Virus record (IMG/VR): IMGVR_UViG_3300012980_000004
Location: 1-64,000 of that record
Source of the DNA: a virus
Length of the DNA: 64,000 nucleotides
Strand: one strand, 5' to 3'
In this document: positions 29,441 to 29,585 of the stretch, piece by piece
How positions within the stretch are numbered: position 1 is the first letter of the stretch
Layout: the number at the start of each line of letters is the position of its first letter
The notes under the pieces: generated by a model
What the model was told of the DNA's origin: nothing
Database searches by the model: none
What the model saw: only the letters and a program-made list of their open reading frames with translations
Program-made: the position numbers and the translations under genes

Positions 29441-29585
29441 GCTTCGCGCTCAAACGAACAGAACTCACAAGCAAATACGGGTTCGAATCCCGTTGTTTCC
29501 CGCAAGGGAAATATGGCCGAATGGAATAGGCAATCGTCTCGTAAACGATCATAGCGAACCAGTTTTGTTCTCTCGAGCGTGGAGT
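29441..29585 (+). ncRNA. Closed, circularly permuted tRNA-like RNA E (145 nt)
   Basis: A 20-bp terminal duplex (29441-51/29575-85 and 29456-64/29562-70) encloses four arms. These are T-arm ACGGG-TTCGAAT-CCCGT, acceptor TGTTTCC/GGAAATA capped by C-GCAA-G, D-arm GCC-GAATGGAATA-GGC, and stem-loop ATCGT-CTCGTAA-ACGAT. Confidence 0.7.

What the first reader, a model, noticed from the sequence alone, without database searches (positions are those of the whole stretch)
29441..29585. RNA E: a circularly permuted, closed tRNA mimic with a tetraloop-capped acceptor stem
29441-29451 pairs with 29575-29585 (11 bp) and 29456-29464 pairs with 29562-29570 (9 bp), giving a 20-bp terminal duplex. Inside, in order, lie TCACAAGC (a variant of the family CYTACAAGC motif) and the T-arm ACGGG-TTCGAAT-CCCGT. 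Next is the 3' acceptor strand TGTTTCC joined through C-GCAA-G to the 5' acceptor strand GGAAATA (7 bp plus a closing pair). Then come TG, the D-arm GCC-GAATGGAATA-GGC and the arm ATCGT-CTCGTAA-ACGAT. This is a tRNA cloverleaf whose ends open at the tip of the variable arm, with the aminoacyl end sealed. Bacterial YrlA-type Y RNAs, the partners of Ro60, also have loop-closed acceptor stems in a tRNA-like domain. Two-piece tmRNAs arise from permuted genes. RNA E matches neither exactly.
Basis: partly seen in the sequence, partly recalled or inferred. Interest (0 to 1): 0.8.

Follow-up and report, generated by a model that had tools for sequence, protein, structure and literature searches.

The report
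Permuted tRNA-like RNA of huge phages
This is a real, conserved small RNA of huge bacteriophages that folds like a tRNA whose ends have been moved to the tip of a long side arm and whose amino-acid-accepting end is closed by a loop; it is encoded close to a distant relative of the Ro60 RNA-binding protein and most likely serves as that protein's Y-RNA-type partner.

Summary
It is one member of a family. A covariance model found 26 aligned copies, and more in further loci, in huge-phage contigs and one unannotated GenBank record. In the alignment 93.8% of cells pair and 41 of 42 pairs show changes on both sides. The tRNA Levitt pair also covaries (A15:U48 18 times, G15:C48 5 times). The two-part terminal duplex matches the long variable-arm insert of the unpermuted tRNA-like RNAs A, B, C and F next to it, so RNA E is a natural circular permutation of its neighbours. 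In 8 of 25 relatives the cap over the acceptor stem encodes N73-CCA plus a short spacer. The window's clade has sealed tetraloops instead (GCAA, UUCG). About half of the anticodon loops are non-canonical, so most copies are unlikely to decode. The RNA is linked, on the same strand, to a protein with the Ro60 fold in two protein lineages that share only about 25% identity. Best reading: a Y-RNA-like tRNA mimic, close to YrlA. It fails the YrlA membership tests on Rfam score, the GNCGAA motif and stem position. I rate it a new variant of a known kind. Function is inferred, not shown.

The parts
29441..29451 (+). Outer terminal duplex, 5' strand (GCUUCGCGCUC). It pairs with 29575-29585.
   Evidence: All 11 pairs change on both sides in 26 homologues (helix 1).
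29452..29455 (+). Internal loop, 5' side (AAAC; family consensus AUCA-like).
   Evidence: Alignment tables. It corresponds to the AAAUCC side of the variable-arm loop of RNAs A, B, C and F.
29456..29465 (+). Inner terminal duplex, 5' strand (GAACAGAACU). It pairs with 29561-29570.
   Evidence: All 10 pairs change on both sides (helix 2). L009 has GGUUGAGGCU/AGCCUCAGUC at this place.
29464..29476 (+). Conserved junction motif CUCACAAGC (family CUYACAAGCA) plus the spacer AAAU. The last base is U48, partner of A15.
   Evidence: YACAAGC is nearly invariant in 26 copies. Position 48 covaries with position 15.
29477..29493 (+). T arm ACGGG-UUCGAAU-CCCGU.
   Evidence: Helix 3 is 100% paired and the T loop is UUCGANU in 24 of 26 copies.
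29494..29513 (+). Capped acceptor stem: 3' strand UGUUUCC, C73, GCAA tetraloop, G(-1), 5' strand GGAAAUA.
   Evidence: All 8 pairs of helix 4 change on both sides. The caps of the relatives are compared.
29514..29532 (+). U8-G9, D arm GCC-GAAUGGAAUA-GGC (A14, A15, G18G19) and A26.
29533..29549 (+). Anticodon-type arm AUCGU-CUCGUAA-ACGAU (loop reads as anticodon CGU with U33 and A37).
   Evidence: All 5 pairs of helix 6 covary. The loop is not conserved among relatives.
29550..29560 (+). Semi-conserved single-stranded linker CAUAGCGAACC (family ..AACGCAAYC).
   Evidence: Alignment tables.
29561..29570 (+). Inner terminal duplex, 3' strand (AGUUUUGUUC).
29571..29574 (+). Internal loop, 3' side (UCUC; family ACUC, the most conserved loop).
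   Evidence: CU invariant. It matches the ACCUC of RNAs A, B, C and F.
29575..29585 (+). Outer terminal duplex, 3' strand (GAGCGUGGAGU).
29302..29440 (+). RNA A, an unpermuted tRNA-like RNA. The same arm (29354-29411) sits in its variable position. Its 3' end abuts the 5' end of RNA E.
   Evidence: (27.6 bits, E 1.6e-4).
29591..29722 (+). RNA B, an unpermuted tRNA-like RNA with the arm at 29638-29697. Its 5' acceptor starts 5 nt after RNA E.
29724..29860 (+). RNA D. The same kind of two-part terminal duplex and a CUUACACGC motif enclose an unpermuted tRNA-like body that has a 3-bp acceptor.
   Evidence: z -4.57. ARAGORN and Rfam call only the body.
29869..29997 (+). RNA C, an unpermuted tRNA-like RNA with the arm at 29912-29969.
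30267..30405 (+). RNA F, an unpermuted tRNA-like RNA with the arm at 30320-30378.
23546..25435 (+). Gene of a 629-aa Ro60-fold protein (helical repeats plus vWA), the proposed protein partner. It lies 4.0 kb upstream of RNA E on the same strand.
27672..29259 (+). Conserved neighbours: JAMM/JAB protease (27672-28088), a 90-aa protein ending KTPFGT (28128-28400) and a ThiF/E1-like protein (28681-29259). Their relation to the RNA is unknown.

Best explanation
RNA E is a stable non-coding RNA of about 145 nt. It folds into a tRNA-like L-shape with permuted connectivity. The chain starts and ends in a 21-bp two-part duplex that projects from the variable-arm position, and the acceptor stem is closed by a C-GCAA-G cap. 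It is a circular permutation of the tRNA-like RNAs encoded beside it (A, B, C, F), which carry the same arm as a hairpin in their variable region. I propose that it works like a Y RNA of the YrlA type. The arm is the handle: outer helix, conserved 4x4 internal loop (AUCA-like opposite ACUC), inner helix and the flanking CUYACAAGCA strand. The phage's divergent Ro60-like protein would bind this handle. The tRNA-shaped body would be presented to tRNA-recognising proteins, either as an adaptor or as a decoy. The RNA is probably released from a polycistronic transcript by processing of its neighbours: 3'-end processing of RNA A just upstream and RNase P cleavage at the 5' end of RNA B 5 nt downstream. 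The fold, the family, the permutation relationship, the gene linkage and the Ro60 fold of the protein are shown computationally. Binding to the Ro60-like protein, the identity of the partner of the tRNA-like body, the processing steps and the sealed state in vivo are inferred.
For: Family: model R1 finds full-length copies at 44-153 bits in many huge-phage contigs.
Covariation: 93.8% of cells pair, 41 of 42 pairs change on both sides, and the score is 0.793 against 0.200 shuffled and 0.09-0.16 slid. An independent RNAalifold run agrees.
tRNA tertiary features: A15:U48 in 18 copies, G15:C48 in 5, and only 3 degenerate exceptions. U8, A14, G18G19, the T loop and A26 are conserved.
Same arm as the neighbours: model R2, built from the E-type arms only, has as its top four hits in 64 kb the variable arms of A, C, B and F. 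The arm also closes RNA D and small hairpin-only RNAs in L022 and L163.
Sealed caps: the window's clade has hyperstable tetraloops, GCAA here and UUCG in L009, L032 and L086.
Not constrained as a decoder: about half of the anticodon loops lack U33 or have 6, 8 or 9 nt, and close relatives differ (CGU, GAA, ACG).
Partner protein: the lineage-2 model (pLDDT 87.6) has Ro60 structures as its ten best PDB hits (human/Xenopus Ro60, Thermus phage phiLo Ro60, Deinococcus Rsr). TM is 0.47-0.61 over 530-577 columns, and the next hits are isolated vWA domains at E of at least 2e-3. It is homologous to the window protein (hhalign probability 100, E 8e-45). The window protein's own model also hits Ro60 first (E 1e-8).
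Linkage: E-type RNAs lie within 6 kb of the gene in 26 of 56 loci of lineage 1, and all 36 hits are on the gene's strand. In lineage 2 they lie within 1.4 kb in 5 of 6 loci, sometimes upstream and sometimes downstream.
Precedent: bacterial and phage Y RNAs lie within 4 kb of Ro60 on the same strand and carry a T arm, closed acceptor and D arm module (PMC4201824). Phage Ro60 binds phage Y-like RNAs (PMC12135203).
Biogenesis: in 14 of 24 copies the T loop of an upstream tRNA(-like) gene sits 20-30 nt before the 5' end, and tRNA(-like) 5' ends follow a few nt downstream.
Against: There is no expression or binding data of any kind.
The protein has no TROVE domain by Pfam or by profile search against PDB sequences. 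The window protein's own model aligns to Ro60 with TM of only 0.17-0.32.
The arm lacks the GNCGAAN0-1G motif thought to contact Ro60 in bacterial Y RNAs (0 of 26 copies).
Linkage within lineage 1 could be inherited synteny. The ThiF, JAB and 90-aa genes are just as conserved as neighbours, and ThiF recurs in lineage 2, so another neighbour could be the real partner.
Thirty of the 56 Ro60-like loci show no E-type RNA within 6 kb. Many of these are cut by contig ends, and A-type RNAs were not counted.
The encoded CCA in 8 of 25 caps points to a role for a free 3' end in part of the family, which a pure scaffold does not require.
Confidence: 0.55

Rival explanations
1. RNA E is a true permuted tRNA gene. 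RNase P (with 3' trimming or CCA addition) opens the cap, giving a two-piece tRNA held together by the acceptor stem and the 21-bp arm. This tRNA is aminoacylated and decodes (here ACG, Thr).
For: The full set of tRNA tertiary nucleotides is present and the Levitt pair covaries. The acceptor stem has 7 bp. In 8 of 25 relatives N73-CCA follows the 3' acceptor strand exactly, where chance would give about 0.4 of 25, and 19 of 25 caps start with C. About half of the anticodon loops are canonical, including this one (CUCGUAA). The RNAs sit inside tRNA gene arrays. As precedent, M. smegmatis YrlA is cut by RNase P and receives CCA (PMC4201824).
Against: This copy has no CCA. Its cap is a GNRA tetraloop closed by a C73:G-1 pair, and its nearest relatives have UUCG caps, which is selection for a closed hairpin. 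About half of the anticodon loops lack U33 or have 6, 8 or 9 nt, and close relatives carry different 'anticodons'. The phage already encodes tRNA-Thr(CGU) at 22983-23057. The 21-bp arm and about 20 nt of conserved junction are far beyond any class II variable arm (own knowledge).
Confidence: 0.12
2. RNA E is a tRNA decoy or sponge that acts without the Ro60-like protein. Its stable, end-protected tRNA shape would soak up host tRNA-targeting defence nucleases (anticodon nucleases) or tRNA-modifying enzymes during infection.
For: The mimicry of the tRNA shape is close, while the anticodon loops are free to vary. The closed ends would protect it from exonucleases. Several paralogues with different bodies and loops occur per genome. 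That phages counter tRNA-targeting defences with their own tRNAs is my own knowledge and was not checked here.
Against: This does not explain the strongly conserved arm loops and the CUYACAAGCA motif, which are outside the tRNA-like part. It also does not explain why the arm occurs on hairpin-only RNAs or the linkage to the Ro60-like gene in two lineages.
Confidence: 0.15
3. The RNA is a substrate or cofactor of the neighbouring Ubl-like/E1-like/JAMM genes (90-aa protein, ThiF, JAB). One example would be a tRNA-type thiolation or another E1-dependent modification of the T loop or position 37. The Ro60-like gene would then be an incidental neighbour.
For: ThiF lies directly upstream of the RNA cluster in the window and in 8 related loci. 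ThiF also lies near the Ro60-like gene in lineage 2. The JAMM motif HSHPx7SxxD is intact. From my own knowledge, E1-like enzymes act in tRNA thiolation (TtuC/TtuB, Uba4/Urm1) and in ct6A formation (TcdA). TcdA is a weak NCBIfam hit.
Against: No PP-loop tRNA thiolase was found among the neighbours. The 90-aa protein matches no family. In L266, L267 and L268 the E RNA is next to the Ro60-like gene and no ThiF gene is called or detected in those loci.
Confidence: 0.08
4. RNA E is a non-functional relic: a junction left by recombination between tandem tRNA-like genes, or merely a processing spacer or RNase III site in the tRNA precursor.
For: Junctions of tandem tRNAs with similar acceptors do match the permuted model in part, for example the tRNA-Gly/Gly junction at 32478-32572 (32.9 bits). 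This shows how the arrangement can arise. A duplex of about 20 bp with an internal loop resembles phage RNase III sites (own knowledge).
Against: Compensatory changes occur in every helix across 26 copies and two distant phage lineages. Loop and junction sequences are conserved, a tertiary pair covaries, and several paralogues occur per genome. Relics do not behave like this.
Confidence: 0.03

Closest known systems
YrlA-type bacterial and phage Y RNAs (Rfam RF02553; Chen et al. 2014, PMC4201824)
   Same: Both have a tRNA-like module with the order T arm, loop-closed acceptor stem, U-R, D arm. In both, the 5' and 3' ends pair into a two-part stem with an internal loop. Both are encoded within a few kb of a Ro60-fold protein on the same strand, and several related RNAs occur per locus, including hairpin-only ones. 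Some members have an openable acceptor (M. smegmatis YrlA is cut by RNase P and gets CCA) and others are closed. YrlA is the only non-tRNA Rfam family that weakly hits relatives.
   Different: The terminal stem leaves the cloverleaf at the variable-arm position, not the anticodon-stem position, and a complete anticodon-type arm is kept. The GNCGAAN0-1G motif is absent (0 of 26). Other conserved elements take its place (CUYACAAGCA, ACUC loop). Scores are 22.8-28.1 bits against the 69-bit threshold, and the window copy gives no hit. The partner protein has no detectable TROVE domain by sequence. Unpermuted versions with the same arm coexist in the same cluster.
Permuted tRNA genes of Cyanidioschyzon merolae and other algae (Soma et al. 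2007; own knowledge)
   Same: The 3' half (T arm and 3' acceptor strand) is encoded upstream of the 5' half, the two acceptor strands are joined by a short intervening sequence, and the ends of the transcript pair.
   Different: Those genes form a bulge-helix-bulge motif, are cut by the splicing endonuclease, pass through a circular intermediate and give ordinary decoding tRNAs. Here the ends form a 21-bp duplex with a symmetric 4x4 loop and no BHB. The system is a bacteriophage, the break is in a long extra arm, and the products do not look like constrained decoders.
Two-piece tmRNA from permuted ssrA genes (Rfam tmRNA_permuted; own knowledge)
   Same: The gene is permuted, and the CCA end and the 5' end of the tRNA-like domain are joined by a spacer that RNase P-type processing removes. 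The encoded N73-CCA plus spacer in 8 of 25 relatives is the same design.
   Different: There is no mRNA-like reading frame and there are no pseudoknots. ARAGORN and Rfam find no tmRNA here. A full anticodon arm is present. The window copy is sealed.
Thermus phage phiLo Ro60 with Yrl1 and Yrl2 (PMC12135203)
   Same: It is a phage-encoded Ro60-fold protein with small structured RNAs encoded next to it. The phiLo Ro60 structures are among the best structural matches of the protein family found here.
   Different: Yrl1 and Yrl2 are stem-bulge-stem RNAs with a CGAA motif, and no tRNA-like body is described for them. The phiLo protein is a recognisable Ro60 homologue by sequence.

Membership tests
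YrlA (Rfam RF02553) | Score at or above the Rfam gathering threshold (69 bits). | tested here: not met
   The window copy gives no YrlA hit at E up to 10. Relatives score 23.9 bits (L009, full length), 28.1 and 22.8 bits (L099).
YrlA (Rfam RF02553) | tRNA-like module in the order T arm, loop-closed acceptor-like stem, D arm. | tested here: met
   The YrlA model aligns this part of L009.
YrlA (Rfam RF02553) | The 5' and 3' ends pair into a stem that takes the place of the anticodon stem. | tested here: not met
   The ends do pair, over 21 bp. By order along the chain the stem sits between the anticodon arm and the T arm, which is the variable position, and a separate 5-bp/7-nt anticodon arm is kept.
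YrlA (Rfam RF02553) | GNCGAAN0-1G motif near the 5' end (proposed Ro60 contact; PMC4201824). | tested here: not met
   The motif is in 0 of 26 copies. CGAA occurs in 1 of 26.
YrlA (Rfam RF02553) | Encoded within about 4 kb of a Ro60 orthologue and on the same strand. | tested here: met
   In the window it lies 4.0 kb downstream on the same strand. In lineage 1, 26 of 56 loci have a copy within 6 kb and 36 of 36 hits are on the gene's strand. In lineage 2, 5 of 6 loci have a copy within 1.4 kb. Caveat: the protein is Ro60-like by fold only.
YrlA (Rfam RF02553) | Bound by Ro60/Rsr in vivo. | not testable with these tools
   Needs immunoprecipitation or EMSA.
Permuted tRNA gene (Cyanidioschyzon type) | The 3' half is encoded upstream of the 5' half, with the acceptor strands joined by an intervening sequence. 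| tested here: met
Permuted tRNA gene (Cyanidioschyzon type) | Bulge-helix-bulge motif at the paired termini for the splicing endonuclease and circularisation. | tested here: not met
   The termini form 11 bp, a symmetric 4x4 loop and 10 bp. No pair of 3-nt bulges separated by 4 bp is present.
Permuted tRNA gene (Cyanidioschyzon type) | The product is a canonical decoding tRNA (7-nt anticodon loop, U33, R37, CCA end). | tested here: inconclusive
   The window loop CUCGUAA is canonical, but this copy has no CCA and a sealed cap. In the family about half of the loops are non-canonical and 8 of 25 copies encode CCA.
Two-piece tmRNA | Tag reading frame and pseudoknots in addition to the tRNA-like domain. 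| tested here: not met
   ARAGORN finds no tmRNA in the window. Rfam gives no tmRNA or tmRNA_permuted hit in 29150-30100 at E up to 10.
Canonical tRNA (Rfam RF00005) | Contiguous cloverleaf with free 5' and 3' acceptor ends, detected by tRNA finders. | tested here: not met
   ARAGORN makes no call. Rfam tRNA scores 22.1 bits, below the 29-bit threshold, and the match lacks a T arm.
Canonical tRNA (Rfam RF00005) | Tertiary-interaction nucleotides (U8, A14, R15:Y48, G18G19, T54-Ψ55-C56, A58). | tested here: met
   A15:U48 in 18 copies and G15:C48 in 5.
Ro60/TROVE protein (for the proposed partner, 23546-25435) | Helical-repeat ring plus a C-terminal vWA domain, with the Ro60 fold. | tested here: met
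   The lineage-2 model has Ro60 as its top 10 PDB hits, TM 0.47-0.61. It is homologous to the window protein by hhalign (probability 100). The window model's top hits are also Ro60, but TM is only 0.17-0.32.
Ro60/TROVE protein (for the proposed partner, 23546-25435) | Pfam TROVE domain or other sequence-level similarity to Ro60. | tested here: not met
   Only vWA families are found. A profile search against PDB sequences finds no Ro60.

The most novel reading that the evidence does not exclude
The arm may be a portable 'handle' that huge phages graft onto tRNA-shaped bodies in at least four topologies: in the variable loop (A type), as a permuted terminal stem (E type), as a terminal stem on the acceptor side (D type), and on a bare hairpin. 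Together with a cryptic Ro60-like protein and a co-conserved Ubl-like/E1-like/JAMM trio, these RNAs would form a previously undescribed phage RNP system. In it, some members are opened by RNase P to expose an encoded CCA end and may be charged or enzymatically modified. Sealed members such as RNA E would act as regulatory or decoy paralogues.
Probability: 0.15. Interest if true: 0.9.

Novelty: new variant of a known kind. Interest (0 to 1): 0.7.

Why it matters
Natural circular permutation of a structured RNA is rare. Here the permuted and unpermuted forms sit side by side in one gene cluster, so the evolutionary step and its functional consequence can be tested directly. The family extends the Ro60/Y-RNA theme to huge phages whose Ro60 homologue is invisible to sequence searches. 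It also supplies a new set of conserved RNA elements (ACUC/AUCA loop, CUYACAAGCA) that are candidate protein-recognition sites. The gradient from caps encoding CCA to sealed tetraloop caps is a ready-made experiment on how RNase P and end-maturation enzymes treat closed tRNA mimics. In practice, these RNAs are missed or miscalled by tRNA finders and are unannotated in GenBank, or overlapped by spurious ORFs.

Tried and rejected
- Rfam gathering and E-value scans find no family for RNA E other than a sub-threshold tRNA hit.
- ARAGORN makes no tRNA or tmRNA call on RNA E.
- BLAST of 27000-31000 against GenBank phages gives only one weak protein-level relative.
- The exact motif search CCGCGGTYCYTACAAGC in viral contigs returned mostly a coding false positive (RGPYKR). 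Only L009 was real.
- My recollection that the ThiF, 90-aa and JAB genes are a PRTRC cassette was not supported. PRTRC_ThiF scores only 31.8 bits against a cutoff of 144.75, and there are no PRTRC hits for the other proteins. A ParB-like guess for 30221-30826 has no family support.
- No PP-loop (TtuA-like) thiolase signature is visible in the 331-aa neighbour.
- TROVE was not found by Pfam, on the single protein or on 52 members, nor by a profile search against PDB sequences.
- PHROGs gave nothing useful.
- The promoter and terminator scan of 28400-31000 was no better than shuffles.
- The first hairpinised-arm alignment (A4) was out of register with the structure, so it was rebuilt without gaps (A5).
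Of the 100 loci I searched with the model it gave one strong copy (L163), on a 16.8-kb contig that also carries A-type, D-type and hairpin-only arm RNAs.
- Larger ORFs elsewhere in the window showed no RNA-processing enzymes.
- A coding explanation for 29441-29585 was rejected. Only short overlapping ORFs are present, cap length varies from 4 to 23 nt, and the substitutions are pairwise compensatory.
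Full report
**Observation.** They show an 11-bp outer duplex, a 4x4 internal loop, a 10-bp inner duplex, a T arm, an 8-bp acceptor hairpin capped by GCAA, a D arm and an anticodon-type arm. The energy is -54.8 kcal/mol against -35.5 ± 4.0 for 200 dinucleotide shuffles (z -4.84), and no shuffle did as well. 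ARAGORN tRNAs in the window but nothing here. Rfam gives only a sub-threshold tRNA match (22.1 bits) on the 5'-acceptor, D and anticodon part, with no T arm. The window is a tRNA-rich stretch of a huge phage. Its only GenBank relative is Virus Rctr197k.

**A family with strong covariation.** A motif search brought in L009, a 363-kb phage contig. It has the same gene order (ThiF, RNA A, RNA E) and an RNA E homologue in which the inner duplex is completely different in sequence yet still pairs: GGUUGAGGCU/AGCCUCAGUC against GAACAGAACU/AGUUUUGUUC. Its cap is UUCG instead of C-GCAA-G. L020 gave a third copy.
- A covariance model built from these three (R1) found full-length matches of 44-105 bits in many further huge-phage contigs. 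It also matched a 16.8-kb MAG contig that carries other RNAs of this family (L163) and the GenBank record KX853510, where the RNA is unannotated.
- On 26 aligned copies 93.8% of cells form standard pairs, against 60.6% in column shuffles and 33-45% when partners are slid by 1-3 columns.
- Of 42 pairs, 41 have changes on both sides, and every helix is covered (first set).
- That alignment is fitted to the model, so I also ran MAFFT plus RNAalifold on 18 copies. It recovers the outer duplex, T arm, 7-bp acceptor hairpin, D arm and anticodon arm, with 27 of 29 pairs compensated.

**It is tRNA-shaped.** U8, A14, G18G19, the T loop UUCGANU and A26 are conserved. Position 15 of the D loop covaries with the base just 5' of the T stem, as the tRNA Levitt pair does. 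There are 18 copies with A15:U48 and 5 with G15:C48, and only three degenerate copies deviate. This tertiary signal is independent of the helices and argues for an L-shaped fold.

**RNA E is a circular permutation of its neighbours.** The cluster 29300-30405 holds five more RNAs.
- A (29302-29440), B (29591-29722), C (29869-29997) and F (30267-30405) have the normal tRNA order and free acceptor ends. Each carries an insert of about 55 nt in the variable region.
- I hairpinised the terminal duplexes of 13 E-type RNAs and built a model from them alone (R2). I then scanned all 64 kb on both strands with filters off. The four best hits were exactly the variable-arm inserts of A, C, B and F (27.6, 24.5, 18.9 and 17.4 bits).
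- In those matches the model's inner helix, xCUC loop, outer helix, A-rich loop and YUACAAGC positions are each matched. RNA E is therefore the A-type design opened at the tip of the arm hairpin, with the acceptor closed.
- The same arm closes RNA D (29724-29860; z -4.57). The body of RNA D is what ARAGORN calls tRNA-Arg. The arm also closes small hairpin-only RNAs in L022 and L163.
- The arm behaves as a portable module. The junction of two tandem tRNA-Gly genes (32478-32572) partly matches R1, which shows how a tandem duplicate can give rise to a permuted gene.

**The cap.** After the 7-nt 3' acceptor strand and one discriminator base, the next three bases are CCA in 8 of 25 relatives. They are CCU, CCG or CCC in three more, and 19 of 25 start with C. 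One to six further bases, or a small hairpin insert, then lead to the +1 base. Chance would give about 0.4 CCA in 25. This is the layout of a tRNA precursor whose 3' trailer is joined to its 5' leader, so a single RNase P cut would free both ends. The window copy and its nearest relatives instead have tight caps: C-GCAA-G here, UUCG in L009, L032 and L086, and AUUA in L020. The window's GCA differs from CCA by one base. The sealed state is real for this copy but derived within the family. The same split is known in YrlA: the M. smegmatis RNA is cut by RNase P and receives CCA, and the Salmonella and Deinococcus RNAs are not cut (PMC4201824).

**Anticodon loops.** The stem covaries perfectly, but the loop is not constrained. 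The window, L009 and L020 read CGU, GAA and ACG. About half of the copies lack U33 or have loops of 6, 8 or 9 nt. The phage already has tRNA-Thr(CGU). Decoding is therefore unlikely to be the general function.

**Context and partner.** The block vWA protein (629 aa), 331-aa protein, JAMM protease, 90-aa protein, ThiF, RNA cluster is conserved in eight related loci.
- The 629-aa protein has only a vWA domain by Pfam. Its AlphaFold model (pLDDT 83.6) hits Ro60/TROVE structures first (E 1e-8 to 1e-6) over 486-591 columns, but TM is low at 0.17-0.32.
- A second lineage of the protein, found next to E-type RNAs in L126/L266, is clearly homologous (hhalign probability 100, E 8e-45, 26% identity).
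- The second lineage gives a better model (pLDDT 87.6, pTM 0.75). All ten of its best PDB matches are Ro60 proteins (human/Xenopus Ro60, Thermus phage phiLo Ro60, Deinococcus Rsr), with TM 0.47-0.61 over 530-577 columns. The next matches are isolated vWA domains at E of at least 2e-3. The family is a divergent Ro60.
- In lineage 1, E-type RNAs lie within 6 kb of the gene in 26 of 56 loci, and all 36 hits are on the gene's strand.
- In lineage 2 they lie within 1.4 kb in 5 of 6 loci, either downstream (L266, L271) or upstream. In L267 and L268 they end 26-28 nt before the start codon.
- Linkage that survives about 75% protein divergence and changes of relative position is the best available evidence for a functional tie. 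It matches the rule found for bacterial Y RNAs, which lie within 4 kb on the same strand (PMC4201824). ThiF also recurs in lineage 2, so it cannot be excluded as a partner.

**Biogenesis (inferred).** In 14 of 24 copies the T loop of an upstream tRNA or tRNA-like gene lies 20-30 nt before the E 5' end, so E begins 2-3 nt after that gene's discriminator. A tRNA(-like) 5' end often follows 3-8 nt after the E 3' end. In the window, RNA A ends at 29438-29440 and RNA B starts at 29591. Ordinary tRNA end-processing of the neighbours would therefore release RNA E with nearly flush duplex ends. No promoter or terminator signal stands out.

**Comparison with known families.** YrlA (RF02553) is the closest. 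It is the only non-tRNA Rfam family that hits relatives, at 22.8-28.1 bits including one full-length alignment, and it shares the T arm, closed acceptor and D arm module, a two-part terminal stem and Ro60 linkage. RNA E is not a member, for four reasons:
- The scores are far below 69 bits.
- The GNCGAAN0-1G motif is absent in 26 of 26 copies.
- The terminal stem sits at the variable position rather than the anticodon-stem position.
- A full anticodon arm is retained.
It is not a Cyanidioschyzon-type permuted tRNA gene, because there is no bulge-helix-bulge motif. It is not a two-piece tmRNA, because it has no reading frame or pseudoknots and gives no ARAGORN or Rfam hit. Searches of the paper library found no description of permuted tRNA-like RNAs in huge phages.

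**Mechanism and confidence.** I am nearly certain that RNA E is a genuine structured RNA with a permuted tRNA fold. I give 0.55 to the specific model that the arm is the handle for the Ro60-like protein and the tRNA-shaped body is an adaptor or decoy, in the manner of YrlA and of the phiLo Yrl RNAs (PMC12135203). The rivals are a decoy that acts without Ro60 (0.15), a processed two-piece decoding tRNA (0.12), a substrate of the E1-like/Ubl-like/JAMM genes (0.08) and a relic or spacer (0.03). All functional steps are inferred, and no expression or binding data exist.

**Limits.** Model R1 was seeded from three sequences and its E-values are rough. Synteny within lineage 1 is partly inherited. 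Lineage 2 rests on six loci. Many loci are cut by contig ends. The host is unknown.

Noticed in passing
window 29724-29860: ARAGORN's 'tRNA-Arg(acg)' at 29751-29822 has only a 3-bp acceptor (Rfam aligns model positions 5-66). It is the body of a larger RNA closed by the same kind of two-part duplex (GGAAGUGCUC/GAGCGCUUCC, loops AAAA/CCUC, motif CUUACACGC). Fold: -48.5 kcal/mol, z -4.57.
   Followed up: partly
window 29302-29440, 29591-29722, 29869-29997, 30267-30405: Four tRNA-like RNAs in the normal order carry an insert of about 55 nt in the variable arm, have short D loops, and two of the four (A, B) have anticodon loops without U33. No tRNA finder calls them.
   Followed up: partly
window 32478-32572: The junction of two tandem tRNA-Gly genes with similar acceptor stems matches the permuted model (positions 37-107, 32.9 bits). 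This illustrates how a permuted gene could arise from a tandem duplication.
   Followed up: no
window 27672-29259: A JAMM protease (HSHPx7SxxD), a 90-aa protein ending KTPFGT and a minimal 192-aa ThiF/E1-like protein lie in a row and look like a Ubl/E1/JAB trio. They are conserved next to the RNA cluster in eight relatives, and ThiF also lies near the Ro60-like gene in the second lineage (L269, L270).
   Followed up: partly
window 49904-49986 and 49128-49185: Two Rfam tRNA hits (38.4 and 30 bits) are not called by ARAGORN. They may be further aberrant tRNA-like genes.
   Followed up: no
L099 520-612: A bacterial-type small SRP RNA (57.7 bits, above threshold) is encoded in a 372-kb phage contig directly after two E-type RNAs.
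   Followed up: no
L056 5485-6666: A phage-encoded EF-Tu homologue (GTP_EFTU, domains 2 and 3) lies about 1 kb from an E-type RNA, followed by a GIY-YIG endonuclease.
   Followed up: no
L105 2640-2860: Weak tmRNA and permuted-tmRNA hits (about 25 bits, below threshold) lie about 570 nt downstream of an E-type RNA.
   Followed up: no
L265 19540-19681 (GenBank KX853510, Virus Rctr197k): An E-type RNA (58 bits) is unannotated in the public record. The 'hypothetical protein' CDS annotated just after ThiF (locus 18413-19477) occupies the position where the RNA cluster lies in the window, L009 and L020.
   Followed up: partly
L022 about 5240-5340 and L163 about 4700-4560 (minus strand): Small RNAs have the same terminal duplex, ACUC-type loop and CUYACAAGC motif but only one small hairpin in place of the tRNA-like body. 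They recall the hairpin-only YrlB/Yrn2 RNAs.
   Followed up: partly
window 9208-13854 (minus strand): A 1548-aa ORF is full of collagen triple-helix repeats (9 matched stretches). A second collagen-repeat protein with a lectin-like domain lies at 42819-44306.
   Followed up: no
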